Source: a virus (Duplodnaviria > Caudoviricetes). Taken from it: a DNA stretch of 64,000 nt. Position numbers and translations under genes: made by a program. The stretch lies in IMG/VR virus record IMGVR_UViG_2806311045_000001, positions 6,218 to 70,217 of that record; one strand, written 5' to 3'. The stretch's first letter is position 1. Every line of letters starts with the position of its first letter. Positions 13,834-59,300 of this stretch are shown in pieces. The notes under the pieces are model-generated. The model worked only from the letters and a program-made list of their open reading frames with translations. It was not told the DNA's origin and made no database searches.

Positions 13834-15744
13834 GTGTGCCACGAATGCATCCAGTGGCGTGATTGTTGGTGGGTGCAATGCTGTATCAGAGATGAGGGTC
13901 GGCCCCTCGGAGGCGGTGTCCAGACGCAGCCTCCAAACCACCTTGAGTTGCTGCCGTTAAGAGCGGCGGTGATGAGCGTCAAGGAAAAGGCGGTAGTGCG
14001 AACCGATGGGTGCAAACTCGCTGAGGTTCGCACTGCAAACCGTCAGGTACGTGTGATCAGAAGATGAACGCAAGTGAACTGCCGTTGAAGTGTCGAAAGC
14101 GTTTAGGCGATGTCAAAAGCGCGGTATGCGAACTACGCGCGACAAGTCCAGCGGGAGTCTGGCGACTGGTTGGGCGGCATCCGGCATGTAGGCAGCATGA
14201 TCATCACACAGGCTCTGGTGCGGAACGTGGGAACCTGTCGTCCCGATGCCAAGGGAGCGGCGCGGAGCAGAGGCACTGCGAGCGCCTGAGTACCGATGCG
14301 GGGCACAGGGGCAGATGGCCCCGTAGTAGTGACGAAGCGCCTGTAATGGGCGTGGAGCGAAGGGGGCCAGTTGTTGGGGCTGATTTGTTGATCAACCGAG
14401 CGATCGGGATGAGTCCATGAATCAGCCAAAGCCGTTTGCGGTTTCCAAACGTGCTGTTTGGGAAGCGTACAAGAAGGTCAAAGCCAATCGCGGTGCGGCA
14501 GGCGTCGATGGTCAATCGATCGAGGAGTTTGAACAGGATCTCTCGGGAAACCTGTACAAGCTCTGGAACCGGCTGGCTTCGGGCAGCTACATGCCGCCTG
14601 CGGTACGGTGCGTCGAGATACCGAAAGCCACAGGAGGAACGCGACCGTTGGGTATTCCGACGGTGGCCGACCGAATTGGGCAGATGGTGGTAAAGGACGC
14701 GCTGGAGCCGATCCTGGAGCCATGCTTTCATCACGACTCCTATGGATACCGGCCGAACAAATCCGCGCACGACGCCCTGGCGGTGGCCCGGCAGCGATGC
14801 TGGCGCGCCGCCTGGGTGCTGGACGTAGACATCAAGGGGTTCTTCGACAATATCGATCATGCCCTTCTGATGAAAGCGGTGCGCAAGCACATCGATTGCA
14901 GATGGATCACGCTTTACATCGAGCGGTGGCTGACTGCGCCGGTGCAATTGCCGGATGGAACGTCGCAAGCACGGAACAAGGGAACGCCGCAGGGTGGAGT
15001 TATCAGCCCGTTGTTGGCCAACCTGTTCCTGCACTATGTGTTCGACATGTGGATGGTGCGAAATTTTCCCGCCAACGGTTTCGAACGGTACGCCGATGAT
15101 GTGGTGATCCACAGCACGAGCTTAAAGCAAGTGACCATGCTGCGCGCGCAGCTCACGGAACGCTTGGCGGACTGCAAATTGGAGATGAGTCCAGGCAAGA
15201 CGAAGATCGTCTACTGCAAGGACAAGCGGCGGAAAGGAGGTTACCCGGAAATCAGCTTTGATTTTCTTGGGTATACATTCGGGCCGCGCAAGTCCAGAGC
15301 CAAGGATGGTTCAATCAGCCTAAACTTTCTGCCCGCCATTAGCGGCAAAGCAGCCAAGGCAATCCGTCAGACCGTGCGGGACTGGAGTCTGCACCGACGC
15401 ACACCGATATCCCTTGAGGAAATCGCGCGTCGAATCAATCCGGTCGTACGCGGTTGGGTGGATTACTATGGTCGCTTCTATCGTTCAAAACTGTGTCTGG
15501 TCCTGTCTCACATTGACCTGCATCTAGCCAAGTGGATTGCGCGCAAGCATAAGCGGGTGCGCAAGAGCTTGGTGCGGGCATATGAGTGGTTGCGGCGGAT
15601 ACGGGGAGAGTGTCCGGAATTGTTCGCTCACTGGCGCATGGCCTACCGGAGCTAAATGGCTCAACAACAAGAGCCGTATGAGGGGAGACTCTCACGTACG
15701 GTTCTGTGGGAGCGCAGGGGGGAGGTTCCCCTGCGCCACCCGAT
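13834..15744 (+). mobile_element. Group II intron, RmInt1-like (bacterial class D/IIB)
   Basis: 5' GTGTG at 13834; domain V GAGCCGTATGAGGGGAGACTCTCACGTACGGTTC 15671-15704 (AGC triad); DVI ending ...CCCGAT 15744; EBS1 GCGAACT 14128-14134 complementary to exon AGTTCGC 13827-13833. Confidence 0.92.
14417..15655 (+). CDS. ltrA: Group II intron reverse transcriptase/maturase, no endonuclease domain
   Basis: RPLGIPTVADR, DIKGFFDNI, GTPQGGVISPLLANL, RYADD, FDFLGYTF, maturase X domain; 412 aa. Confidence 0.96.
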   Translation: MNQPKPFAVSKRAVWEAYKKVKANRGAAGVDGQSIEEFEQDLSGNLYKLWNRLASGSYMPPAVRCVEIPKATGGTRPLGIPTVADRIGQMVVKDALEPILEPCFHHDSYGYRPNKSAHDALAVARQRCWRAAWVLDVDIKGFFDNIDHALLMKAVRKHIDCRWITLYIERWLTAPVQLPDGTSQARNKGTPQGGVISPLLANLFLHYVFDMWMVRNFPANGFERYADDVVIHSTSLKQVTMLRAQLTERLADCKLEMSPGKTKIVYCKDKRRKGGYPEISFDFLGYTFGPRKSRAKDGSISLNFLPAISGKAAKAIRQTVRDWSLHRRTPISLEEIARRINPVVRGWVDYYGRFYRSKLCLVLSHIDLHLAKWIARKHKRVRKSLVRAYEWLRRIRGECPELFAHWRMAYRS

Positions 15745-15881: not shown

Positions 15882-17285
15882 ATGCTCAACGTCGAGTACC
15901 GCGAGGTCGCGGCGCTGATTCCTTACGCCCGCAATCCCCGGACCCACAGCGACGAGCAGGTGGCCAGGATCGCCGCCAGCATCGTGGAGTACGGCTGGAC
16001 CAACCCGGTCCTGGTCGACGGCGAGAACGGCGTGATCGCGGGCCATGGGCGGCTGGCTGCCGCGCGCAAGCTCGGCATGGAAGATGTGCCGGTGATCGAG
16101 CTGGCCCACCTGTCGCCGACGCAGAAGCGCGCGTTGATCCTCGCCGACAACCGTATCGCGCTCGACGCGGGATGGGACGAGGAGCTGCTGGCGCTGGAAT
16201 TCGCCGAACTGGCCGACGCCGGCTACGACCTGGCCCTGACCGGTTTCAATGACGCCGAGATCGATGCGCTGTTGGCCGATCAGCTGGACGACGCGGAGGG
16301 CAACAGCGAGGCGGACGGCGAGGAGCCGGATGCAGCGGATGATGTGCCCGACGCCGCTGCGGTGTCGGTGTCCCGGCCGGGCGACGTCTGGCTCCTGGGC
16401 GAGCACCGTCTGATCTGCGGCGATGCCGCCGACAGCGACGTGATCGCGACCCTGATGGCGGGCCAGCAAGCCGCCCTGTGTTTCACCTCGCCGCCCTACG
16501 CCAACCAGCGCAACTACACCACCGGCGGCATCGCCGACTGGGACGTGCTGATGCGCGGCGTGTTCGACAACGTGCCGATGGCCGGCGGCGGCCAGGTGCT
16601 CGTCAACCTCGGGTTGGTCCACCGCGACAGCGAGGTCGTCCCATACTGGGACGCCTGGATCGCGTGGATGCGCACGCAGGGCTGGCGGCGCTTCGGCTGG
16701 TACGTCTGGGACCAGGGGCCGGGCATGCCGGGTGACTGGATGGGGCGCCTGGCGCCGTCGTTCGAGTTCGTCTTCCACTTCAACCGCGAGGCTCGGCGGC
16801 CGAACAAGACGGTGCCGTGCAAGTTCGCCGGCCGGGATGAACACCTGCGCCCGGACGGCACGTCGACCTCGATGCGGGGCCGGGACGGCGTTCGCGGGAG
16901 TTGGACGCACAAGGGCAAACTTACCCAGGACACCCGGATCCCGGATTCGGTGATCCGCGTGATGCGGCACAAGGGCAAGATCGGCCGCGACATCGACCAC
17001 CCGGCGGTGTTCCCGGTCGCGCTGCCAAAGTTCGTGATCGAGGCGTACTCGGATGCCGGCGACATCGTGTTCGAACCCTTTGGCGGCAGCGGCACCACCA
17101 TGCTTGCTGCCCAGCGGACGGGGCGTCAGTGCCGCAGCGTCGAGATCGCACCCGAATACGTGGACGTAGCGATCAAGCGCTTCCAGCAGAGCTACCCCGA
17201 GGCGCCGGTGACGCTGCAGTCGACCGGCCAGCCTTTCGCGGCCGTTGCCGCCGAACGCTTGGCGGGCGAGGAGGTGGTGCAATGA
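15882..17285 (+). CDS. ParB-N domain + N4/N6 DNA methyltransferase 1
   Basis: PYARNPRTHSDEQV ParB-like N-terminus; FTSPPY; FEPFGGSGTT. Confidence 0.9.
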   Translation: MLNVEYREVAALIPYARNPRTHSDEQVARIAASIVEYGWTNPVLVDGENGVIAGHGRLAAARKLGMEDVPVIELAHLSPTQKRALILADNRIALDAGWDEELLALEFAELADAGYDLALTGFNDAEIDALLADQLDDAEGNSEADGEEPDAADDVPDAAAVSVSRPGDVWLLGEHRLICGDAADSDVIATLMAGQQAALCFTSPPYANQRNYTTGGIADWDVLMRGVFDNVPMAGGGQVLVNLGLVHRDSEVVPYWDAWIAWMRTQGWRRFGWYVWDQGPGMPGDWMGRLAPSFEFVFHFNREARRPNKTVPCKFAGRDEHLRPDGTSTSMRGRDGVRGSWTHKGKLTQDTRIPDSVIRVMRHKGKIGRDIDHPAVFPVALPKFVIEAYSDAGDIVFEPFGGSGTTMLAAQRTGRQCRSVEIAPEYVDVAIKRFQQSYPEAPVTLQSTGQPFAAVAAERLAGEEVVQ

Positions 17286-18502
17286 CGGCCTCCTGGCTCG
17301 CAGACAAGATCGAGCACTGGCCGATCCAGCGGCTCGCCCCCTACGCCGCCAACGCCCGGACGCACTCCGACGAACAGATTGCGCAGATCGCGGCCAGCAT
17401 CGTGGAGTTCGGGTTCACCAATCCGATCCTGGCTGGTGGCGACGGGGTCATCGTTGCGGGGCACGGGCGCCTCGCCGCTGCCATGAAGCTGGGCTTGCAG
17501 CTGGTGCCGGTGGTGGTGCTGGACCACCTGAGCCCCACGCAACGGCGGGCACTGGTGATCGCGGACAACCGCATTGCCGAGAACGCGGGCTGGGACGAAG
17601 TCGTGCTGCGCGCCGAGCTGGCTGCGCTCGACGCGGCGAACTTCGACCTGTCGTTGACGGGCTTCGATGTGGACGCGCTGGCCGAGCTGATGGACGGGGA
17701 GGAGGGCGACGGTCAGGCGGAGGAGGCTGCGCTGCCGGAGGTGCCTGAGGAACCAGTCTCCCGTCCGGGCGACGTCTGGGTGTTGGGCAGGCATCGGCTG
17801 CTGTGCGGGGACGCCACCGTCGTGGAGAGCTACGACAGACTGTTACAGGGTGAACCGGCGGACATGGTCTTCACGGATCCGCCGTACAACGTGAACTATG
17901 CCAACACGGCCAAGGACCGGCAGCGCGGCACGAGCCGGGCCATCCTGAACGACAACCTGGGCGGCGGCTTCTACGATTTTCTGCTGGCAGCGTTGACGCC
18001 GACGATTGCCAACTGCCGAGGTGCCATCTACGTGGCGATGTCCTCCAGTGAGCTGGACGTGCTGCAGGCGGCGTTCCGCGAGGCGGGTGGCCGCTGGTCG
18101 ACGTTCATCATCTGGGCCAAGGACCGTTTCACGATGGGGCATGCGGACTACCAGCGGCAATACGAGCCGATCCTCTACGGATGGGCCGAGGGAGCACAGC
18201 GCCACTGGTGCGGCGACCGCGACCAGGGCGACGTCTGGCAGATCAAGAAGCCCGCGAGGAACGACCTGCATCCAACGATGAAACCGGTGGAACTGGTGGA
18301 GCGGGCGATCCGCAATTCGAGCCGGCCGGGTGACGTGGTGCTCGATGCGTTCGGCGGTTCGGGCACGACGCTGATTGCCGCAGAGAAGGCGGCGCGCACT
18401 GCGCGCCTGATCGAACTGGATCCCAGGTATGCCGACGTGATCGTCAGGCGTTGGGAGGAATACACCGGGGAGCAGGCTATCCGCGAGGCGCTGATCCGGT
18501 AG
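17282..18502 (+). CDS. ParB-N domain + N6 DNA methyltransferase 2
   Basis: PYAANARTHSDEQI; FTDPPY; HPTMKP; LDAFGGSGTT. Confidence 0.92.
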   Translation: MTASWLADKIEHWPIQRLAPYAANARTHSDEQIAQIAASIVEFGFTNPILAGGDGVIVAGHGRLAAAMKLGLQLVPVVVLDHLSPTQRRALVIADNRIAENAGWDEVVLRAELAALDAANFDLSLTGFDVDALAELMDGEEGDGQAEEAALPEVPEEPVSRPGDVWVLGRHRLLCGDATVVESYDRLLQGEPADMVFTDPPYNVNYANTAKDRQRGTSRAILNDNLGGGFYDFLLAALTPTIANCRGAIYVAMSSSELDVLQAAFREAGGRWSTFIIWAKDRFTMGHADYQRQYEPILYGWAEGAQRHWCGDRDQGDVWQIKKPARNDLHPTMKPVELVERAIRNSSRPGDVVLDAFGGSGTTLIAAEKAARTARLIELDPRYADVIVRRWEEYTGEQAIREALIR

Positions 18503-32828: not shown

Positions 32829-33119
32829 TCAGGCGATCAGGAATTTGTCGCGGTTCTTGCCGAGCCATGCGGGTGCACGGCCACGGCCGGACCAGGTGGC
32901 ACCGGTCTTGGGGTCGCGGTACTTAGGGACCGATGCCGCCTTGGGGCCGCGCTTGCCACCACGCTTCGGTGCCAGACCGATGTCCTCCGCGGTCAGGCCG
33001 TATTCCTGCACGACTTGTCGCACCTGCGCGGTGATCTCGGCCAGCTCTTTCTGGCGGGCGGCTTCGAGTTGCTCTTCGAGCTTGTTCTTTTGAGCAAGCA
33101 GGTCTTTGTAGGTTGCCAT
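32829..33119 (-). CDS. hns: H-NS family nucleoid protein
   Basis: N-terminal coiled coil; PKYRDPKTGATWSGRGRAPAW DNA-binding motif; 96 aa. Confidence 0.92.
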   Translation of the reverse strand: MATYKDLLAQKNKLEEQLEAARQKELAEITAQVRQVVQEYGLTAEDIGLAPKRGGKRGPKAASVPKYRDPKTGATWSGRGRAPAWLGKNRDKFLIA

Positions 33120-33682
33120 GTGGTTTTTTCCCGAAAGATCGTTGTATTTGAAATAGCCGAGGCGCAGATCACCAGTGCCGAATCGCAAAGACGTACACGC
33201 CATCGGATATTGAAATTTTAGCTGCAACTTAAATGAACTGCATGTGCGGTGCAGCAAGAGTTTCAATAAATGAGGAAGTATTGAACATTCCAGCCGAACC
33301 CAACGGCGCCTGGATCGAGCTCCCATAACCCGGCGCTGTTGCCCGAAGCATTAAAGGCACACCACATTTGCTTTGAAATTGGGGACGTCGTTAGCGGAAT
33401 GTGGTTCTGTGTCGTTTCGCGACATCCCAGGTTCGACTGCCTTTCGCACCTATTCGTCCGGGCAGTCAGAGGAACCCCAATTCCTCGCGCCTGAATCCTA
33501 CCGCCGCTCTGCGGCACATCCCTGCAACACCACCTCGCTGAAAAGCAGTCCCTAGCCATTCCGTTACCAGGCGGGCTCGCCGCCGCTCGCCCGCTGATGT
33601 CTCCCGGACCTCGGCATTCAACGTCGCCTCAATTCGATCGCTTGTTGGCGCCAGGGCGACTGGCCGTCTCAAAGCCAAGAAC

Positions 33683-34741
33683 ATGAATACACCTATCACC
33701 CTCGACACCGACGGCTGTCGGATCGGGAGACGACGCACGCCTTGCGGTGCGAGCGTCGGTGCTGCACACGATTCGAAGGCCACTGTGCACGTCGTCTCGA
33801 TGTCCGGCGGCAAGGACAGCACCGCAACCGCGATCCTTGCGCTGGAACTCCATGGTGCCGCCGCCTGCCGGTTCGTCTTCGCCGACACCGGCAACGAGCA
33901 TGAGGCGACCTACGACTACGCGCTGGACTATCTGCCTCGCGCTCTCGGCATCCGCATCGACGTGGTCCGCGCGGACTTTGCCGACGAGTTCGCCACCAAG
34001 CGCGCCAACTTGGCACGGATCGCTGCCGGAGAACTTGAGTCGGCAGTCTATGGCCGGCGCCAGTTCAAGTACCGATGGACGCGCAGTACCGCTGCCCGCG
34101 CGTTGGAGCTGCTGCATCCCACCGGCAACCCGTTTCTGGATCTCTGTCTGGTACGTGGTGGATTTCCGAGCCGCAAGCGCCAGTTCTGCACTGAATACCT
34201 GAAGCGGAATCCGCTCACGGAATACGCGCTTGACCTGGCGGACGCTGGCTACCACGTTGAATCGTGGCAAGGCGTGCGCGCCGACGAGAGCGAGGCCCGC
34301 CGCTGGCTGCCGTCCTACGAGTACCGCGGCGCGAGGCTGGCGATCTACCGCCCGATTCTGCGCTGGCGGGTCAACGACGTGTTCGAGGCGCACAGGGTGG
34401 CGGGGATTGAGCCAAATCCCCTGTATCGAAAGGGCATGCATCGCGTCGGCTGCATGCCCTGCATCAACTGCAGCAAGGGCGAGCTGCGCGAGATCGCGAG
34501 TCGGTTCCCCGAGCACATCGAGCGCATCGCCGAATGGGAGCGGCTCGTATCCCAAGTGTGCCGTCCGCGCACGCCGGTCTCGTTTTTTCATCTGGGCACG
34601 CAAGGACACGCTGGTCAGTCTTCCACGATCGACGCAGTTGTGGAGTGGAGCAGAACCACACGCGGTGGCCGGCAATTCGACCTGTTGGCCGGCTTGACCG
34701 AGCCCACAGCCTGTTCTTCCGCCTATGGCCTTTGTGAGTAG
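33683..34741 (+). CDS. PAPS-reductase-family (PP-loop) protein
   Basis: SMSGGKDST, FADTGNE, QFCTEYLK, GVRADESEAR, RVGCMPCINC. Confidence 0.88.
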   Translation: MNTPITLDTDGCRIGRRRTPCGASVGAAHDSKATVHVVSMSGGKDSTATAILALELHGAAACRFVFADTGNEHEATYDYALDYLPRALGIRIDVVRADFADEFATKRANLARIAAGELESAVYGRRQFKYRWTRSTAARALELLHPTGNPFLDLCLVRGGFPSRKRQFCTEYLKRNPLTEYALDLADAGYHVESWQGVRADESEARRWLPSYEYRGARLAIYRPILRWRVNDVFEAHRVAGIEPNPLYRKGMHRVGCMPCINCSKGELREIASRFPEHIERIAEWERLVSQVCRPRTPVSFFHLGTQGHAGQSSTIDAVVEWSRTTRGGRQFDLLAGLTEPTACSSAYGLCE

Positions 34742-34748
34742 CAGAGGT

Positions 34749-35876
34749 ATGGGCGCCTATTACAACGAGATCGATCCGTATGCGGCCGCGTGGCTGCGCA
34801 ACCTGATCGCCGCCGGCCACATCGCGCCGGGCGATGTTGACGAAAGAGACATTCAAGATGTGCAACCCGAAGACCTCCGGGGATATAGCCAGCACCACTT
34901 CTTCGCAGGTGTCGGCGTCTGGTCCTTGGCGCTGCGCCGCGCAGGCTGGCCAGATGACCAGCCCGTCTGGACCGGCTCCTGTCCGTGCCAACCTTTCTCC
35001 CAGGCAGGCAAGGGACTCGCGTTTGCTGACGAGCGGCACTTGTGGCCAGCCTGGTATCACCTCATCAGCGAGTGCCGACCTCCAGTGGTTCTTGGAGAGC
35101 AGGTTGCGAGCATCAACGCGGACGCTTGGATCGACCTTGTACAAGATGACATGGAAGCCGTGGGTCACGCCTTCGGGGCGGTCCCGTTTCCGTCTGCGGG
35201 CGTCGGTGCCCCGCACATCCGGGACAGGCTTTACTGGGTGGCCTACGCCGACGGCTTGCGAAGCCGGCGGTACTCCCGAGCAGTTCGTCGCGCGAAAGCT
35301 GAGATCAATCGCGAAGGGAGCGAAGATGGGGGCAAGCCTGACGGATTTGAGCTTGGTCGCACAAATGGCAGGCTGGCCCACTCCCTGCCAGCAGGACGGA
35401 CCGAAGGGCGGCCCTTCGCAGGGAATCGATCGCCTTCCGGGCTGCGCGTCGCTGGCTGGCTGGCCGACACCTATGGCGGGTACACCGGCGCAGAACGGCA
35501 ACAACGCAGCGGGCAACAACGACAGCAGCCGGAAGACGGTGGCATTGGTCTCGGGCTGGGCCACGCCGAACGCGAGGGACTGGCACTCGGCCAGCGGCTC
35601 GCCGGAGTTCCTTGCGCAGCGAGCGGAACAGACCCGCGGCAAGCCGTTGAGCGAGCAGGCATTCACGTTGCTTCCGGGCCCGGCCCGACAAATGGCCTGT
35701 GGCGAGATGCTGACTGGCTCCTGTGCCGGGATGGACGCTGGCGGCCAGTTGAACCCGGCGCATTCCCGCTGGCTCATGGGGCTCCCGCCCGAGTGGGACG
35801 CCTGCGCGCCTATGGCAACGCCATCTGCGCTTCGGCGGCGCAAGCATTCATCGAATCAGTAATGGCGTGGCTGTAA
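34749..35876 (+). CDS. C5 cytosine methyltransferase, alpha chain
   Basis: YNEID, FFAGVG, GSCPCQPFS (catalytic PC), GEQV, PHIRDR, RAYGNAI (motif X). Confidence 0.88.
   Translation: MGAYYNEIDPYAAAWLRNLIAAGHIAPGDVDERDIQDVQPEDLRGYSQHHFFAGVGVWSLALRRAGWPDDQPVWTGSCPCQPFSQAGKGLAFADERHLWPAWYHLISECRPPVVLGEQVASINADAWIDLVQDDMEAVGHAFGAVPFPSAGVGAPHIRDRLYWVAYADGLRSRRYSRAVRRAKAEINREGSEDGGKPDGFELGRTNGRLAHSLPAGRTEGRPFAGNRSPSGLRVAGWLADTYGGYTGAERQQRSGQQRQQPEDGGIGLGLGHAEREGLALGQRLAGVPCAASGTDPRQAVERAGIHVASGPGPTNGLWRDADWLLCRDGRWRPVEPGAFPLAHGAPARVGRLRAYGNAICASAAQAFIESVMAWL
34834..35862 (+). CDS. Overlapping +1-frame ORF, probable MTase beta chain (true start uncertain, perhaps 35146)
   Basis: 342-codon open frame; GQLNPAHSRWLMGLPPEW resembles motif IX; four GW[P/A]TP repeats. 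Confidence 0.68.
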   Translation: MLTKETFKMCNPKTSGDIASTTSSQVSASGPWRCAAQAGQMTSPSGPAPVRANLSPRQARDSRLLTSGTCGQPGITSSASADLQWFLESRLRASTRTLGSTLYKMTWKPWVTPSGRSRFRLRASVPRTSGTGFTGWPTPTACEAGGTPEQFVARKLRSIAKGAKMGASLTDLSLVAQMAGWPTPCQQDGPKGGPSQGIDRLPGCASLAGWPTPMAGTPAQNGNNAAGNNDSSRKTVALVSGWATPNARDWHSASGSPEFLAQRAEQTRGKPLSEQAFTLLPGPARQMACGEMLTGSCAGMDAGGQLNPAHSRWLMGLPPEWDACAPMATPSALRRRKHSSNQ

Positions 35877-35947
35877 CCACAACGTCTTCGTAGAAAGACG
35901 GACTGGATTGAGTCGTGGATTCCGAATCCTATGCAAGCGTTGAACGC

Positions 35948-36361
35948 TCAGGCTTCCCAGGGGTTGATGAGCTGGACGTCGAGCCCCGCGAAATCTTTGG
36001 TGTTGCGCGTGACCAGCGTGAGGTCGTGTTGCAGGGCGGTCGCGGCCAGCAGGCCGTCGATGGCGGGCAGGGGGCGGCCAGCCGAGGACATCAGCCGGCC
36101 CCAGCGGTCCGCAGTATGTGCATCGATGTCGAGCAATCGGCCGAGAAAGTAGTTCGGCAATTCCACTTCGAGCCAGTCAATCAGGTTCTGGCGGCGTACC
36201 GCGTCCTCCAGCCGCTCGATACCTTTGCGAATCTCGCCCAGGGTCAGCACGCTCAGGTAGAGCGACTGGCGCGGGCGGTCCTGCATCCAGGCCACCACGC
36301 GCGCATCGGGCGCTTTGCGACGCAATTCGGACAGGACATTGGTGTCGATCAGGTAACTCAA
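35948..36361 (-). CDS. vapC: VapC PIN-domain toxin
   Basis: YLIDTNVLSE, TLGEI, IDGLLAATA, LVTRN..DF. Confidence 0.93.
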   Translation of the reverse strand: MSYLIDTNVLSELRRKAPDARVVAWMQDRPRQSLYLSVLTLGEIRKGIERLEDAVRRQNLIDWLEVELPNYFLGRLLDIDAHTADRWGRLMSSAGRPLPAIDGLLAATALQHDLTLVTRNTKDFAGLDVQLINPWEA

Positions 36362-36609
36362 AACTCGACCTCGCGCGGCAGGCTGCGCTCGCGCTCAAAA
36401 ACGACATCGTCCTGATCGGCCAGCGGGGATTGGCGCATGAAGCTGACCAGCGACTCACCGCTGCCGCTCAAGCGATCGAACAGTGCGCGCGAGATCACTA
36501 CCGCCACCGGGCGGCCATGCACGGTGATTTCCTGCGGGCCGTCGTCTGCTGCCCGCTTCACGACATCGGAAAACCGCGCCTTGGCGGCCTGCATTTGCCA
36601 GCTTTGCAT
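36358..36609 (-). CDS. Phd/YefM antitoxin
   Basis: WQMQAAKARFSDVVKRA...PQEITVHGRPVAVVIS. Confidence 0.9.
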   Translation of the reverse strand: MQSWQMQAAKARFSDVVKRAADDGPQEITVHGRPVAVVISRALFDRLSGSGESLVSFMRQSPLADQDDVVFERERSLPREVEF

Positions 36610-36640
36610 AGTGGGCCTCCTTTCATGGATCAATGAATTA

Positions 36641-40794: not shown

Positions 40795-41190
40795 ATGCAA
40801 TTGAAGAACCTGGCGGACAGCGCGGTCCTCGCGCTGCCCGATGACCTGCTATGGACGGACGAACACGCCTGGACGCCCGCCGTGGCGGCGGTGTCGTACC
40901 TGCTGACCGGCGCACTGCTGGTCGAATCGGCCGCCCGCCAGAAGGGGCGGCCCATCACGCTGGTGGGCGGCGCCGACATGGCCTGGGTGACCCGCGCGAC
41001 GGTGAACACGCTGTACGCGTGGGCTGCGGCGCCCAATCGGCAATTCGAACTGACCCTCACGAATGGCCGCGCCTTCACCGTGGCTTTCCGGCATCACGAA
41101 ACCGCCATCGAGGCCGAGCCAGTGATGGGCTTCCCGGCCCGGCGCGAGGGCGACTTCTACCGGCTGACCGTGCGCTTCATGGAAGTGTGA
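40795..41190 (+). CDS. Distal tail protein (probable)
   Basis: LPDDLLWTDEHAW...GRPITL; follows tape measure. Confidence 0.72.
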   Translation: MQLKNLADSAVLALPDDLLWTDEHAWTPAVAAVSYLLTGALLVESAARQKGRPITLVGGADMAWVTRATVNTLYAWAAAPNRQFELTLTNGRAFTVAFRHHETAIEAEPVMGFPARREGDFYRLTVRFMEV

Positions 41191-41749
41191 AGGTGATCGC
41201 CTTCGTCCGGTCGTCAGTCCAGCAACTGCTGATGTTCCTGGCATCGCACGTCGTATAGGCCTTTTCTCCGAGCAGCTCGCGCGTCTTATGCAGATTCTTT
41301 TCGGTCACGGTTTCGCAGCGCACGGTGTTGTCGCGCCAGCCACAGAAGTACACCTTGTCGGCTTCTTCCACGTCGCGCCGGAACCGCACCAGATCTTGCG
41401 GATTGACTGTGTGGTTGGCCGGCACGGCGGAAGGGATGTGTTTGGCAAAGTCCTCGAAGAATGCTCGTGGCGAGAACGGATTGGCGGGGTCGTATGTCAG
41501 GCCGAGGGCCTTGCATAGCGCCTTGTAGTCATCGTCGTCCAGGCGCGGCCAGATCTCGAAATTCCGGTCGACTTTGATCTCGAACGCCACGTTGTGGCCC
41601 CGAGCGCCGAATAGCAGCTGATAGGTCGGTCCGTCGATGAAGAAATACACATCGAAACTGACCCGCCCATGCCGGTAATCGAATCGGATGCGGTCCAAAT
41701 TCTTCGCTTGCATGTCTTGGTACAGCGGTTCGAGTCCACCCAACTTCAT
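41177..41749 (-). CDS. DUF6037-like accessory gene, antisense in tail operon
   Basis: GGAGGTGA RBS; MKLGGLEPLYQDM...FDYRHGRVSFDVYFFID. Confidence 0.72.
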   Translation of the reverse strand: MKLGGLEPLYQDMQAKNLDRIRFDYRHGRVSFDVYFFIDGPTYQLLFGARGHNVAFEIKVDRNFEIWPRLDDDDYKALCKALGLTYDPANPFSPRAFFEDFAKHIPSAVPANHTVNPQDLVRFRRDVEEADKVYFCGWRDNTVRCETVTEKNLHKTRELLGEKAYTTCDARNISSCWTDDRTKAITFTLP

Positions 41750-41778
41750 TGTCACCTCCACAAGGAAATACAACCAGA

Positions 41779-44700
41779 ATGGCAATACTGACAGGGGATA
41801 TCAAGCTCCTGGCCGCCGAGCGCCTGCTCGACACCCCCGACGGCGGCGGCCGCATGACCGGCCACGTCGTGGTCGACGGCCAGTCCAACAACCTGTTCCC
41901 CGACATCTCCGAGCTCGATCGTACCTACGGGCGCGTGTCGCTGCGCAAGTCCTTTGTCGGGGTGCTGACCGATTCGACCGATTCCTACTACGGCGCGCAC
42001 GCCATCCTTGCCGATGCCCCAGGCGATCCACGGGTGTCGGTCACGCTCTTCACCACCAAATCATGGACCGACCGGCGCGATGCCGCCAAGGATCGCGTCG
42101 AGCGCTACCTGGCACGTGGCGTCAAATGGCCCGGCCAACTGCTGGAGCGCCAGCTCACCGGCCAGCGCGCTATCACGCTGCTGTTGAAGCCGTCTGATTC
42201 ACTGCCGCGTGTCGGGCAGGCGCTCGTGCTCGTGCAGGACGAGGCCAAGCCGACCGAGACCGAGCAGTACGTGAGGGTCACGCGGATCACCACAACCGAA
42301 CGGGAGTTCACGGTGAGCGAAGGCGGCGGCACCGTCAAGTTCTCGTCGATCGTCGCGACCTGCGAGATCTCCGATCCGCTGCGCTATGACTTCGAGGGGC
42401 CGGCGCCGTCCAACCGGGATGACGTCTCGGCCAAGGCCGTAGTGCGCGACACGATCGTCGCCAACGCCGCTGTCTACTACGGTATCGCCCCCACCGTGGC
42501 CGAGGCGCGGGTGGGGGACCTGCGCGTGCAGGTGCCGGGCCTCTTCGGGCAACTGGTGCCGTCCGCGCAGTCGGAGACGCCGCTGGTGGACCTGAACGCC
42601 GCCGGCCAGGCGGTACCGCTGCTGGAGAGCGGCAGCGGCGTGCTGGCCTACACGGCCAACGGCCAGGTCGCCAGCGGCCGCAACCTGTACCTGGGCAACC
42701 CCCTGGTGCCGGGCAGCCTGCGCATTGCCGGTGGCGGCTACACGTTCACCGACTCGGCGGGCCAGCTCAAGTCAGGCACGAGCACCATCGGCACGGTCGA
42801 CTACGCCCGCGGGCTGGTGGCCTTCAAGGACGGCACGCCGGGATACGGCGGCGATTTCCAGGTCAGCTTCCGGCCGGCGGGTGCCCCTACCCGCGTGGCC
42901 GATACGGCAGCGATCGCCGTCGCCCAGGAGAACCGCGGCTACGCCTACACCATCACCCTGTCACCGCCGCCTAAGCCAGGGGCGCTGATCGTGTCCTACA
43001 TGGCCCAGGGCAAGTGGTACGACCTGCGCGACCAGGGCGACGGGGCGATCAGGGGGACCGATTCGTCCTTCGGGGCGGGGACGCTGGACTATGTGACCGG
43101 CTCGGTGATCCTGACGACCGGGGCCCTGCCGGACGCCAACACGGCCATCCTGTTTTCGTGGGGGAGTGCGGCCAGCTACTTCAACCGTGTCTCGGCGCCG
43201 GTGGAACCACCCACCGTGCGCCACACAGTGGCACATCCAGGCATCGCGCCGGGCACCTTGCGTATCACGTGGCCAGACGGTGCGCGTCAGCGCGTGGCCA
43301 CCGACGATGGGCACGGGGTGATCACCGGAGACGGTTCCGGCACCGTGCGCTATGCGCGCGGCGAGCTGGTGTTCCGGCCCGCCGTGCTGCCCGCTGGTGG
43401 TGCGGAGCTGACCCTCGACTACGAGTGGGGGCCGCCGCAGGAAGCGAACTTCGCGCACCCGCTGCGCAACGCCGACGGCACCGTCACGGTCCGGCTGCCG
43501 CAGACCGACCTCCGCCCGAACACGGTCGAGCTCGAGTTCAACCTGCTGATCGAGAACTACCAGTCGATCTCGGGCACGCCCGCCGAGATGCAGGTGGTGC
43601 AACGCGTCGACCCGATCAAGATCGCGCGCGACACCGGCGGCGGCGCATTTGATGCTGCCGTGGTCGGCCGGATCGACTACGCCACTGGCACCATCACCTT
43701 CCGGCCCGACACGACAGTCAACATCCCGTTCGCGCGCTACAGCGTGCAGCAGCTGGGCTGGACGGTGGAGGGCAACGAGCGCCGCCCGGTCTACCGCAAT
43801 ACCTTCAGCCACTGGGAGTACAAGCCGGCTGGCGCGGCGATGCCCGTCGACGACTCGGGCTACGTCAAGGTGCGCTACCGCGCCGCTGACGCAGCGAATG
43901 CAGCGACTGAGACCGTGACGCTCGCCCAGCTGGAAGTCGATCTGACCGACCACTACGCCGAGGCCATCGTGCCCGGTAGCGTGCGCTTTGGCCTGGGTGG
44001 CAAGGTCTACGTGGACCGTCTCGGGATGCTCGTCACCGACATCAATGCCAACACCGGGGCCGGCACTCAGGCTGGCGCCATCGACTACGCCTCGGGCCGG
44101 GCGCTGCTGACCGTCTGGCAGCCGGGCGCCGGCAACGTGGTGTCGATGCAGTCGTTGCTGACCGAATTGGGCGGCCAGCCGGTCGATGAGGTGACCTTCC
44201 GCGTGCCGGCGGCGCCCGTGCGGCCCGGCAGTCTGCAGATCCGCGCGGTACCGCTGACCGGTGGCCAGATCACGGCCACGGCCAACGCGGATGGCACCAT
44301 CGCGGCAGCGGGCATGCTCGGCACGGTGGACTACCAGACCGGCGTGGTGCGCGTGCGGTTCGGGCGCTTCGTGCCCGCAGCCGGCCGGGAAGGCGAGATC
44401 TGGTACAGCGCCGATGCTGTGCGCAACGGCCAGATCTTCCAGCCACTGCCGGTGCTGGCCGACACGCTGCGCTTCAACGCGGTGGCCTTCACGTACCTGC
44501 CGCTGTCGGCTGACGTGCTCGGACTCGATCCAGTCCGGCTGCCGCTCGATGGCAAGGTGCCGATCTTCCGGCCGGGGGACGTGGCCGTGGTGCACCACAC
44601 CGAGACCACGCCGTTTCCGGCCAATGCGCGCGCTGGCGACACACTGGACGTCGGCCGCGTGCGTCTGTCCTCCCTACGGGTGCTGGATGCCAATGGCAAG

Positions 44701-53333: not shown

Positions 53334-56300
53334 ATGAACGCGAAGTGCTATCGAACCGTTTTCAACGCTGTGCGCGGCATGTTGGTTGCCGTGGAGGAAT
53401 CGGCGAGAAGCACAGGCAAGGGGCGTCAGATCGGCGGGCAAGCCGACACGTCGGCCGCATCGACCTCCACCGCCGCGCGCTTCGCCGTGCTGCCGGTGGT
53501 GTTCGGGGCATGGTGCGTATTGGGCGTGTCCTATACCGTGCAGGCCCAGGTTGTCGCGGCCCCGGGGTCGGGCGCGCAGGTCATCCAGACGCAGAACGGA
53601 CTGCAGCAGGTCAACATCGCGCGCCCGAACGGAAGCGGTGTTTCGCTCAATACCTATACGCAGTTCAACGTTCCCGGTCAGGGAGCCCTCCTCAACAACG
53701 CTCCCGGCATCACACAAACGCAGCAGGCCGGCTACATCAACGGCAACCCGAACCTGCTGCCCGGCGGCTCGGCGCGCATCATCGTCAACCAGGTCACCAG
53801 CACGTCGCCGAGCACCCTGCAGGGGTATCTGGAGGTGGCCGGGCCCCGCGCGGAAGTGGTGATCGCCAACCCGAACGGCATCCTGGTCAACGGCGGGGGC
53901 TTCATTAATACGAGCCGGGCGACGTTGACGACCGGGGTGCCAGTGTTTGGCGGCAGCGGCAGCCTGGATGCCTACCGCGTGACTGGTGGGCAGATCACGG
54001 TGCAGGGCGCGGGCCTGAACGCCAGCAACGTCGACCAGGTGGACCTGATTGCGCGGGCGGTGTCGGTCAATGCTTCAGTGTACGCCAACCAGCTCAACGT
54101 GGTGGCGGGGGCGAACCAGGTCGACCACAGCACGCTCAATGCGACGCCGATTGCCGGCGACGGCGCTGGCCCGGCCAACGGCATCGACGTGAGCCAATTG
54201 GGCGGCATGTATGCCAACAAGATTCTGCTGGCCTCGACCGAGAAGGGGGTCGGGGTTTCGTCGCGGGGCGTGGCGGCGGCCCAGGCGGGCGACCTGACGC
54301 TGACCGCCCAGGGCCAACTGGTGCTGGCGGGCCAGACCAGCGCCACAGGCAATCTGAGCATTGCTGGTCGAGACGGTATCACCAACACGGGCGCCACCTA
54401 CGGCACGGGTGCGGTTTCGGTCAGCACCAGCGGAGCGCTCAACAATAGCGGCACACTAGCGTCGCAGCAGGGCCTGACCGTCAACGCGGGCTCTCTGGCC
54501 TCCACCGGCAGCCTGGGCGCGGGTGTTGCCTCGGACGGCACGATCAGCCAGGCAGCGGACCTCAACGTCACAACCACCGGGGCATTGTCGGCAACAGGCA
54601 AGAACGTGGCTGGCGGTAACGCTAGCTTCCAGGGGGCCGGAGTCAGCCTTGCCAACAGCCAGACCACGGCCAATGCCAACCTGGCACTGACGTCTACGGG
54701 CGGCGCAGACCTGACGGGAGCGACGGTCCATGCCGGTGGTGCGGTCAATGCCACGGCTGCTGGTACCTTCATCAATGACCGGGGCCATCTGTCGAGCAAT
54801 GGCGCTACCAGTATCACCGCAGGCAGTGTCTCCAATGTTGGCGGCCAGATCGTCAGCCAAGGGGCGATGCGGCTCCAGGCGTCCGGTGCGCTGGACAATG
54901 CGCAAGGCACCGTGCAAGCCGGGGGCGCGCTGACGGTCAATGCGGCCTCGGTGGACAACACCGCTGGACGTCTGGTCTCGTTGAACGCGGACGACTTGTC
55001 CCTCAACGCCAGCACCGCTATTACCAACGTTGGTGGTACGACATCCGACGGTGCGCAAGGCGGCGTGATTGGCGCAAACGGCGTCGTCAGCCTGACCACC
55101 GGCACACTGACCAACCACGCCCAGATCACTGCGGGCACCGACGCCACGCTCACCGCCACCACGCTCGACAACGCCAGCGGCAGCGTGACGGCCGGCAATG
55201 CACTCACGGCCCAAGTCGCGGGCACCGTGAACAACCAGCACGGTGCGTTGTCCGCTGCTGCGACAACGATCAACGCGGCGTCGCTCGACAACACCACCGG
55301 CAAGCTCGAAGGTAACCGGCTTGGCATCACCACCACCGGCAATCTGGTGAACCGAGGCGGCGCGATCAACCAATACAGCCAGACCGACACACAGCTGAAG
55401 GTCGGCGGCATGCTGGACAACACCAACGGCGTCATCGCGGCCAATGCGCAGAATCTGACCATCGATGCGCAGGCGGTTACCAATGACGGCGGCAAGCTGC
55501 TGCACTCGGGGGCCGGCACCTTCACGGTGGGCAGTCAGGGCGCCTTGCGCAATGTCGCGGGCCAGATTCAGACCAATGGAGCGCTGTCGACGCAGAGCAG
55601 CAGGCTCGATAACGCGAATGGTTTGATCGCGTCCCAAGGCACAGAGACCGTCACTACCACGGACGCGCTCGACAACACCAACGGCACGCTGCACGCGGGC
55701 GATACGCTCAAGGTGCAAGCTGGCGCAGCGCTGACCAATGTTGGCGGCAATATTGAATCGAATAGCGCGCACGGCACTTTGGCGGTGTCGGCCGCATCGC
55801 TGGACAACTCCTCGGGCCGCGTGGTGAACGTAGGGGACGGCGCGACCCGCGTCGCCGTACAGCAGACCCTGTTGAATGCGAACCCGGCGGGCACGACCGG
55901 GCGTGGCCTGATCGGCGGCAACGGCGCAATCGACGTGACCGCCGGCACGCTCGAGAACCATGCCACGATCAGTGCCAAGGGCGACGCGAGCCTAACGGCG
56001 CAGCGGTTCGATAACAGCAGCGGCCGTACGACGGCGGGCGGTGCACTCACGGCCAGCGCGGCGGGAGCGCTTGTCAACCAACAGGGCGTGCTGTCGGGTA
56101 ACGCGACTTCGTTGACGGCCGCTTCGTTGGACAACGGCAGTGGCCGGATCGAGGGTAGCCAGCTCGATATTGTCAGCACGGGCGATTTGGGCAACCGGGG
56201 TGGCACGATCCAGCAGTTCGGCCAGGCAGATGCCAGCATCCAGGCGGGTGGAGTGCTCGACAACACCGCCGGTTCGATCGCCGTCAACGGCAAGAATTTG

Positions 56301-59300
56301 ACGCTCGCGGGTCAAACGATTGCCAACGACGGTGGCAAGGTGCTGCATGCCGGGACAGGAACCCTGTCCGTCACCGCGCAGAACACGCTTACCAATACCA
56401 ACAGCGGCCAACTGCAGACCAACGGCGCACTGGCAGCGCAGGCCGGCTCGCTCGACAACGCCCATGGCACCGTGTCGGCACAGGGCGACGCGTCGGTGAC
56501 AACGACCGGCGATCTGCTGAACCGCCAAGGTGCGATCTATGGCCAGACCAGCCTAACGCTCACAAGCGCCGGTCAGATCGATAACGCGAGCGGCTCGGCG
56601 CAGACGTCCGGCAACCTGTCGACCCGCGCTGCGGGTGCGTTGAACAATGCCGGCGGCACCCTGACTGCCAACGGTGCACATAGCGTCGCGACCGTATCGG
56701 CGGCCCGTCTCGACAACACGGCAGGGCGGCTGACCAACGCCGGCGATGGCGTCACCACGATCACCGCCGCCAGCGCGCTGAACAACACTAGCGGCGCCCT
56801 GGGCGGCAATGGCGACGTCACGATCAACACGCCGGCCCTGACCAATACCAGCGGCGGCCAGATTGCAGCAGGCGGCGCGCTTACGCTGAACACATCGACC
56901 GGCATCAACAATCGCGGCGGAGCGCTTTACGGTGCCCGGGGCCTGACGTTGACGCAGTCCGGCGCCACGCTTGCCAACGACGGCGGCGCTTTGCTCGGTG
57001 GTCAAGACGTGAACCTCAGCGTTGCATCGATAACCAACACTGGCGGCGCAATACGTGCCAACCGCGATATTGCAGCGCAAGGCGCGATGTCCGGCAGCGG
57101 CGAGGTGACTGCCGGCCGCGATCTGTCGCTTCGTGTAACCGGCGACTACCTGAACGATGCCGCCAACCGCTTGCGTGCCGACGGCAACATGCAGGTCATG
57201 GCCAGCGGGACATTCACCAACAGCGGGACCCTGGGTGCGGCGGGCAACACCACCGTGCAGGCGGCCAACGTGGTCAATACCGCCAGTGGCGACATCACCG
57301 GCACGTCGACCACGGTGTCGGCCGCCAACAGTATCAACAACGCCGGCCGCATCGAAGGCGATGCGGTGCAGACCAACAGTGCCGGACTGTTCAACACTGG
57401 AACGGTCATCGGCAACACGGTCCAGGTCCAGGCGAACGATGTGACCAACGCCGGCGCTTCGGCCTTGATCGCAGGGGCGAAGGACGTCAAGGTCTACGCA
57501 ACCAACTCGGTATCGAACCTCGACGGCGCCACGATCTACAGCGCGGGCAATCTGCAAATCGCGCGCGACGGTACGCGTGATGCTGCCACGGGTCTGCTGG
57601 CGAATCAGGTCGGCACGCTCACCAACCGCTCGGCCACGATTGATGCCGATGGCGATATCGATATCGCCGCGCACACGCTCAACAACACACGCACGAGCAT
57701 CGTCACGGCGGCCGGTACGCCCCAGACCGTCACCCAGACACTGTCGGCCTGGTTCGCCGGGTTTACCGGGAACGATCGCCGGTTCCACAGCAGCATTACG
57801 TTCCCGAGCTGGAGCTGGAGCGGCCAGAACGCGCCGGTCAGCGCCAACCTGATGGGCGCGCTGATGCAGCCGATCACGGTGACGGTCCCGAAATCCACGG
57901 TCGCGAACGTCAACACGGCGACCAAGACGCTGTCGTTCACGCAAGCTCCCATTGAGACCTATGACAACCCGGACTTCTCGGGCGGTTGTGGTGGCGGTGG
58001 TGACAACGGTCCGTCGGACTGCACGCCTCAGTACACGCTGACCCGCAACCTGACGTCCAACGCGACCCAGTACTACCAGTCGATCCAGGACAACGGCACC
58101 ACGTATTCCATTACCTTCTGGCCGGACTGGGACCCGAACAAGAACATCCGCCCGGACCAGGTCCGCCTGCGCTTCGACCTGGGCAGCGACAGCCACGACT
58201 ACAGCGAGATCAGTCGCACAGTCAACACGACCACGACGACCGACCAGCTCATCAGCGCTTCCGATCCCGCCAAGATTCGCGCATCGGGGGCGATCCGCGT
58301 CAACAGCAACGGCGGCACGATCCTGAACCAGTCCTCGATCATGGCGGCGGGCGGCGACCTGATCCGGTCGGCGGCGGGCGGTACAGTGACGGACCAGGGA
58401 ACGGCGCTGCAGCAGAGCGTCAGCACGACCGAGACCTCGACCTTCTACTGGCATCAGAAAACAGGTGGCGACTCGGATACCCAAGTAGTGCCCTATCCGA
58501 CCTCGCCGGTCGCCTCCACCACGGTGATGGCTCTGCCGGCGATCGTCTCGTCGAACCAGACGGTGCAGACGACGGCGCAGACCATCAGCGTGAATACTGT
58601 CAACCGCCTGGGCCAGACCGTGACCGGTAGTGGCGTGACGGGCGGCGGAGCGAGCGCCTCGGCGGTCGGCAGCGCGGGCGGCGGCACCAAGAGCGCGGAC
58701 ACACTGAGCGGCTCCGCCGGCAGCGCCGTGGCTTCTGCTTCGGGCAACACGCGCGCGCCGCAGACGCTGGGCTCGGCACAGACGGGCATCCCCAACCTGA
58801 CGCTGCCGCTCAACGGCCTGTTCCACTTCCAGCCGGCACCCAGTGCCACCTACCTGGTCGCCACCGACGCGCGCTTCACGCAGTACACGAAGTTCATCTC
58901 CAGCGACTACATGCTGGGCGCGCTCGGCCTGAACCCGCAGCAGACGCAGAAGCGCCTGGGCGACGGCTTCTATGAAGAGAAGCTCGTACGCGACCAGATC
59001 ACGCAGCTGACGGGGCGCACGTTCCTGGCGGGCTATACCGATCAGCTCAACGAGTACCGCGCGCTGATGGATGCAGGCGTCACCTACGCCAAGGCCTTCA
59101 ACCTGACGCCGGGGATCGGACTGTCGGATGCGCAGATGCAGCAGCTCACCAGCAACATGGTGTGGCTGGTGTCGCAGGACGTGACTCTGCCGGACGGCAC
59201 GCACCAGTCGGTGCTGGTGCCCAAGCTGTATCTCGCGAAGGCCAACACGGTGGACCTGAATTCCACCGGTGCACTGGTGACCGGCAAAGCCGTCAGCCTG

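What the first reader, a model, noticed from the sequence alone, without database searches (positions are those of the whole stretch)
34749..35876. C5 methyltransferase encoded in two fully overlapping reading frames
Seen: frame 0 has motifs I-VIII, then ~150 residues of R/G-rich filler, then motif X (YGNAI) but no motif IX. The +1 frame is open for 342 codons and ends in LNPAHSRWLMGLPPEW, which resembles motif IX. Established: M.EcoHK31I is a heterodimer whose beta chain (motif IX) is encoded in an alternative frame inside alpha. Inference: same architecture here, with about 1 kb under dual-coding constraint; standard annotation would miss beta.
Basis: partly seen in the sequence, partly recalled or inferred. 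Interest (0 to 1): 0.72.

Follow-up and report, generated by a model that had tools for sequence, protein, structure and literature searches.

The report
Phage methylase gene encoding two chains
One 1.1-kb prophage gene is read in two frames, one giving the catalytic half of a DNA cytosine methylase and the other a second chain with a missing core motif and swappable repeat modules; the two-chain layout is known from one tested enzyme, while the modules and a reordered catalytic core look undescribed.

Summary
Confirmed. Alpha (34749-35876) holds the C5-methyltransferase catalytic motifs and motif X. A nested +1 frame (best start 34858, stop 35862) is a real gene. It is stop-free in 86 of 91 homologues (3.5 expected), constrains alpha's silent sites (p 2e-5 and 3e-6) and has a conserved ATG with ribosome site. 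Its C-terminal motif lies just before motif X in single-chain relatives, so it is motif IX. The layout is that of M.EcoHK31I, was noted in streptococcal phages, and is annotated as two CDS in a few records. This scan found it before on other DNA.

(1) Alpha's filler is the shadow of four tandem WPTP modules in beta. They are under selection in beta only, number 1-6 per gene, are gained and lost whole between close prophages, and sit in the target-recognition position. They may make the enzyme multispecific (inferred, about 45%). (2) Alpha's motif order is II-III-I-IV, a non-circular rearrangement, not I-VIII.

No expression, complex or activity could be tested. New variant of a known kind.

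The parts
34749..35876 (+). Alpha chain: C5 DNA methyltransferase catalytic domain plus motif X, 375 aa
   Evidence: PF00145, phrog_363; model matches M.HhaI, Z 12.1, rmsd 3.6, 166 aligned
34761..34862 (+). Motifs II and III (YNEID ... DIQDV) at the N-terminus of alpha, ahead of motif I
   Evidence: Model residue 1 aligns to HhaI residue 34; block swap raises the score against a canonical-order HMM in 86 of 86
34899..34916 (+). Motif I (FFAGVG), 28 residues before the catalytic PC
   Evidence: Aligns to HhaI motif I; same spacing in 101 of 106 loci
34983..35228 (+). Motifs IV (PCQ), VI (EQV) to VIII (RDR) of alpha
   Evidence: Invariant columns; HhaI alignment
35250..35680 (+). Alpha 'filler': open, unconserved, predicted disordered; the shadow of the beta modules
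35811..35825 (+). Motif X (YGNAI) of alpha
   Evidence: Hit by HMM of single-chain IX-X tails, E 9e-4 in a two-sequence search
34858..35862 (+). Beta chain, +1 frame, 334 aa from the best start (ORF open from ATG 34834)
   Evidence: ATG kept in 62 of 89 loci; Asp codon is GAT in 63 of 78 D-V cases against 35% elsewhere; ribosome-site energy -5.2 against -3.05, p 6e-6
34990..35238 (+). Conserved beta N-domain (helix plus hairpin), overlapping alpha motifs IV-VIII
   Evidence: Alpha silent sites constrained; homologous to nested frames of canonical-order enzymes, hhalign 97.9%
35239..35682 (+). Four tandem W-x-T-P modules in beta, starting 35239, 35374, 35461, 35557; putative target-recognition modules
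35749..35796 (+). Motif IX in beta (LNPAHSRWLMGLPPEW)
   Evidence: Hit by HMM of single-chain IX-X tails, E 3e-6 in a two-sequence search; beta IX HMM hits ShiLan gp70, E 2e-7
32829..36636 (.). Context: accessory block (hns, PAPS-reductase-like gene, methyltransferase, Phd/PIN pair) between a DUF6441 gene and the tape measure gene of a provirus

Best explanation
A solitary prophage C5 DNA methyltransferase is made as two chains from one stretch of DNA. Alpha supplies the SAM-binding and catalytic domain (order II-III-I-IV-VI-VIII) and the motif X helix, joined by a disordered spacer. Beta is translated from its own start at 34858 and supplies a conserved N-domain, tandem modules in the target-recognition position, and motif IX. 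The chains assemble into one enzyme, which probably protects phage DNA from host restriction. Shown: both frames, selection on both, motif identities, module turnover. Inferred: translation of beta, assembly, activity, DNA recognition by the modules, anti-restriction role.
For: +1 frame open in 86 of 91 loci against 3.5 expected. Alpha fourfold third positions drop from 1.65 bits before beta to 0.77 and 0.61 bits in the two shared cores (p 2e-5, 3e-6); beta third positions are free only in the module region. Module pairs chosen by DNA identity are 84% identical in beta and 53% in alpha, with 2800 differences at beta position 3 against 868 and 743 (pairs not independent). In close relatives 18 of 23 module-region changes are silent in beta. 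Conserved ATG and ribosome site. Single-chain relatives such as ShiLan gp70 carry PTP repeats, motif IX and motif X in one frame, and others carry IX and X together on the +1 chain. Precedent: M.EcoHK31I needs both chains (PMC2836561).
Against: No expression, protein or activity data. The beta model is poor (pLDDT 51). The first 44 codons of beta leave no mark on alpha's silent sites, so a later start is possible; the window's own ribosome site is weak (-2.9). The module HMM does not hit the target-recognition domains of SPbeta MtbP. The literature places the target-recognition domain of M.EcoHK31I in alpha.
Confidence: 0.85

Rival explanations
1. One polypeptide is made by ribosomal frameshifting from alpha (after motif VIII) into the +1 frame for modules and motif IX, then back for motif X.
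For: Single-chain relatives exist; alpha's spacer is unconserved.
Against: Beta is constrained upstream of any useful switch point and has a conserved start. Alpha stays open across the spacer in all 68 loci tested against 11.4 expected (loci were found with alpha, which favours intact alpha) and across inserted HNH genes. Two shifts would be needed.
Confidence: 0.05
2. The enzyme is two-chained, but the modules are not specificity determinants: they are repeated structural or spacer units and the enzyme has one or a loose specificity.
For: No detectable homology to characterised target-recognition domains; modules poorly predicted; M.EcoHK31I recognition was assigned to alpha.
Against: Position between motifs VIII and IX in single-chain forms; length 31-48 aa; fixed ends with variable, selected cores; about 90 types among 204 modules; the same type recurs in distant phages; whole-module exchange.
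Confidence: 0.4
3. The +1 frame is a by-product of alpha's codon use in GC-rich DNA and makes no needed protein.
For: In this gene alone the frame would be open by chance 7-15% of the time.
Against: alpha has no motif IX; beta relatives form 24,576 clusters at 50% identity.
Confidence: 0.02
4. Both chains are real but the pair does something other than DNA C5 methylation, or is inactive in this prophage.
For: Variant motif VI (EQV) and rearranged SAM-binding motifs; no member of this subfamily was found tested in the papers read.
Against: PC, E of motif VI, motif VIII arginines and GN of motif X are invariant; best fold matches are C5 cytosine methyltransferases.
Confidence: 0.08

Closest known systems
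M.EcoHK31I (YGGCCR), as described in PMC2836561 and PMC3404938
   Same: Two chains; beta encoded wholly inside alpha in another frame; alpha has I-VIII and X, beta has IX.
   Different: Solitary prophage gene, no restriction partner seen next to it; beta carries an N-domain and four tandem modules while alpha's variable region is unconstrained; alpha's order is II-III-I-IV. Direct sequence comparison with M.EcoHK31I was not possible.
Overlapping C5 methyltransferase genes of S. thermophilus 5093-group phages, a temperate pneumococcal phage and Tn5252 (PMC5601072)
   Same: Total overlap of two C5 methyltransferase products in different frames, in phages.
   Different: Noted without discussion of modules or motif order in the passage read; homology to this gene not tested.
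phrog_363 (alpha) and phrog_1008 (beta); e.g. N15 gp58, K1H ORF29/ORF28, PhiXhv-28
   Same: Same family, same nested frame and motif order.
   Different: Module number and types differ; most records list one CDS.
Multispecific C5 methyltransferases of Bacillus phages (SPbeta MtbP; family properties from my own knowledge)
   Same: Tandem short modules between motifs VIII and IX; phage-borne and solitary.
   Different: Single chain; no HMM-detectable homology to these modules; only a short PT motif resembles by eye.
M.AquI (PMC3404938)
   Same: Two-chain C5 methyltransferase.
   Different: Its small chain has IX and X. Relatives L272 and L286 show that split; the window gene does not.
Natural circularly permuted C5 methyltransferases (M.BssHII, M.Alw26I; PMC5944983)
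   Same: Altered motif order.
   Different: Those are circular permutations opened in the variable region; here the motif I block is moved between III and IV, which is not circular.

Membership tests
C5 DNA methyltransferase (PF00145) | Catalytic motifs IV, VI, VIII and the methyltransferase fold | tested here: met
C5 DNA methyltransferase (PF00145) | All of motifs I-X present, in one or two chains | tested here: met
   I-VIII and X in alpha, IX in beta
C5 DNA methyltransferase (PF00145) | Canonical or circularly permuted motif order | tested here: not met
   Order II-III-I-IV: best-domain score 47 bits native, 69 after block swap, 57 with the block shuffled
C5 DNA methyltransferase (PF00145) | Makes m5C in DNA | not testable with these tools
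   Needs an assay
M.EcoHK31I-type heterodimer | Second chain encoded wholly within alpha in another frame | tested here: met
M.EcoHK31I-type heterodimer | Motif IX on beta, motif X on alpha | tested here: met
M.EcoHK31I-type heterodimer | Target-recognition domain on alpha (as predicted in print) | tested here: not met
   Alpha's variable region is unconstrained; selection there is on beta
M.EcoHK31I-type heterodimer | Both chains needed and physically associated | not testable with these tools
M.EcoHK31I-type heterodimer | Sequence homology to M.EcoHK31I beta | not tested
   Sequence could not be obtained
Multispecific C5 methyltransferase | Tandem exchangeable modules between motifs VIII and IX | tested here: met
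Multispecific C5 methyltransferase | Homology of modules to characterised target-recognition domains | tested here: inconclusive
   No HMM hit to SPbeta MtbP; such short variable modules are hard to detect
Multispecific C5 methyltransferase | One module specifies one target | not testable with these tools
   Needs methylome assays of module deletions

The most novel reading that the evidence does not exclude
A very large phage family of multispecific C5 methyltransferases keeps its specificity modules on a hidden overlapping gene and shuffles them as cassettes that must stay open in two frames, around a catalytic chain whose SAM-binding motifs are non-circularly reordered. Each module would specify one target, giving a natural library of compact DNA-recognition units.
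Probability: 0.45. Interest if true: 0.75.

Novelty: new variant of a known kind. Interest (0 to 1): 0.5.

Why it matters
Practically, cloning, recoding or predicting specificity from the annotated CDS alone would fail for this common phage gene family, because recoding alpha destroys beta. If the modules are recognition units, phages carry a large, hidden and swappable anti-restriction repertoire that can be read out directly by methylome sequencing. The family also offers natural intermediates (nested, AquI-like and single-chain forms) for studying how overlapping genes arise and resolve, and a natural non-circular rearrangement of a methyltransferase core.

Tried and rejected
Beta alone folded poorly and gave no structural match above Z 3.6; PDB sequence searches with beta were blank; the protein atlas gave only unnamed viral clusters. 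Short fragments did not score against Pfam. The M.EcoHK31I paper and sequence could not be obtained. One search queried the wrong frame and was not used. The 'relaxed' phage m5C enzymes of Paracoccus and Aeromonas are about 700 aa; I judged them a different family on size alone and did not use them. Starts 34834 and 35146 were rejected: the first is an ATG in only 20 of 89 loci and often cut off by a stop, the second lies inside the constrained N-domain, and neither has a ribosome site. Ten literature searches found no description of the modules or of the II-III-I-IV order, but the library lacks most subscription papers and REBASE was not searchable. Model coordinates could not be inspected, so the three-dimensional topology of the reordered core is unchecked.

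Full report
Observation. The + strand holds an ORF at 34749-35876 (375 aa, alpha) and, one base out of frame and wholly inside it, an ORF at 34834-35862. Alpha matches PF00145 and phrog_363 along its length; the nested product matches two PHROG families labelled DNA methyltransferase. The window is part of a 70-kb provirus record. The nearest phage record is an unannotated Ralstonia phage, 93% identical in alpha and 89% in beta, so the host is probably Ralstonia (inference). The gene lies in an accessory block (hns, PAPS-reductase-like gene, methyltransferase, Phd/PIN pair) between a DUF6441 gene and the tape measure gene; the block's content varies among close prophages.

Is the second frame real? 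In this gene alone an open +1 frame has P 0.07-0.15. Among 91 distinct homologous loci, 86 have no +1 stop between motif IV and motif X, against 3.5 expected from synonymous shuffles; the +2 frame is never open. The five exceptions are three HNH insertions after an intact motif IX, one insertion upstream and one beta that ends just before motif X. In 69 loci under 80% identical, alpha's fourfold third positions carry 1.65 bits of variation before beta starts, but 0.77 bits in 34990-35250 and 0.61 bits in 35680-35830 (p 2e-5 and 3e-6). Beta's third positions are constrained in the same two cores and free between them. So both frames are selected over about 410 nt, and beta alone over the 430 nt between. 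The ATG at 34858 comes from alpha's Asp-Val codons; it is kept in 62 of 89 loci, with GAT in 63 of 78 D-V cases against 35% of other Asp codons, and has stronger ribosome sites than other +1 ATGs (p 6e-6). A beta profile hits 24,576 clusters at 50% identity; some of these are single-chain forms.

What beta contains. A conserved N-domain overlaps alpha's motifs IV-VIII and is homologous to nested frames in enzymes of canonical order from Paenibacillus, Sulfitobacter and environmental phages (hhalign 97.9%; 99.5% over the chain). Then come tandem modules that begin W-x-T-P and end L-x5-L-A-G, 31-48 aa long, 1-5 per gene in my loci and 2-6 in database representatives. The 204 modules fall into about 90 types, and the same type recurs in distant phages. 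Module pairs picked by DNA identity are 84% identical in beta and 53% in alpha, with differences concentrated at beta's third position. Among near-identical prophages 18 of 23 changes here are silent in beta. Close relatives differ by whole modules: the window has A-B-C-D, L043 A-B-D, L047 B-C-D, L044 E-C-D, L049 F-B-C-D. Beta ends in LNPAHSRWLMGLP. An HMM of the C-terminal tails of single-chain relatives (ShiLan gp70 type) hits this segment with its first half and alpha's YGNAI region with its second, which identifies motif IX by position. In those single chains the related PTP repeats lie between motifs VIII and IX, where target recognition domains sit (PMC5944983), and the module HMM hits them (E 1e-5 in a two-sequence search). 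It does not hit SPbeta MtbP, so their role as recognition units rests on position, size and turnover only.

What alpha contains. The order is not I-VIII. Motif I (FFAGVG) lies 28 residues before the catalytic PC in 101 of 106 loci, and the N-terminus reads like motifs II and III. The confident model aligns its first residue to residue 34 of M.HhaI. Moving the motif I block to the front raises the best-domain score against an HMM of 155 canonical N-termini from 47 to 69 bits, in 86 of 86 sequences; with the II-III block shuffled the score is 57. The order II-III-I-IV is not a circular permutation. A 2018 REBASE survey reports natural permutants opened only in the variable region, though it searched only for motif X before motif I. 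A 2025 topology classification describes no such class in the three of its four parts that I read. The spacer after motif VIII is predicted disordered but stays open, even across inserted HNH genes (P about 0.01 each), as expected if motif X must stay attached to alpha.

Mechanism. Most likely (0.85) two chains are translated and assemble: alpha gives the large domain and motif X; beta gives the small domain with motif IX and the modules. Translation, assembly, activity and an anti-restriction role are inferred. That each module sets one target is about 45% likely. A double frameshift (0.05), a chance frame (0.02) and a non-methylating pair (0.08) are the rivals.

Comparison. It works like M.EcoHK31I, whose beta chain is encoded inside alpha and is required (PMC2836561, PMC3404938). 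Total overlap was also noted in streptococcal phages and Tn5252 (PMC5601072), and records of K1H, PhiXhv-28 and DevRi list both CDS. Among canonical-order relatives about 75 loci show the same split, about 25 are single-chain for IX and X, and some carry IX and X together on the +1 chain like M.AquI (motif-pattern counts, approximate). The layout is therefore known in kind and common. This scan reported it before on other DNA, including a first-reader note on the modules. I found no paper on the modules or the reordered core, within the limits of the library.

Verdict. Observation confirmed, interpretation supported with corrections. New variant of a known kind; interest 0.5.

Noticed in passing
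L004:4055-4546, L021:3968-4480, L109, L113: An HNH endonuclease gene is inserted in the beta frame right after motif IX; beta's end is rebuilt before it, the old end follows it, and alpha stays open across the 430-510 nt insert (P about 0.01 each).
   Followed up: partly
L028, inside alpha at motif VI: A different insertion, endonuclease-like by eye, in the +1 frame and fused to beta, with alpha still open.
   Followed up: no
L067, L069, L072: Beta runs past alpha's stop into a further acidic domain of up to about 200 aa; longer database relatives are fused to N6/N4 methylase, DNA polymerase A or helicase domains.
   Followed up: no
L089, L094: Alpha has a single stop at a conserved Gln codon (motif IV or VI) while beta is intact.
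   Followed up: no
L117 (Mycobacterium phage ShiLan gp70) and L248-L269: Single-chain forms keep modules, IX and X in frame 0 but still carry the beta N-domain in the +1 frame, unannotated in ShiLan.
   Followed up: partly
window 32829-36636: Accessory block splitting the tail operon: hns, PAPS-reductase-like gene (phrog_424) abutting the methyltransferase, and a Phd/PIN toxin-antitoxin pair; content differs among close prophages.
   Followed up: partly
window 14417-15655: Reverse transcriptase with group II intron maturase domain.
   Followed up: no
window about 17280-18502: Second methyltransferase, ParB-fused (phrog_498), upstream of the terminase region.
   Followed up: no
window 41177-41785 (-): DUF6037 gene inserted on the opposite strand among tail genes.
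   Followed up: no
window 53334-63494: 3386-aa filamentous haemagglutinin-type two-partner secretion protein.
   Followed up: no
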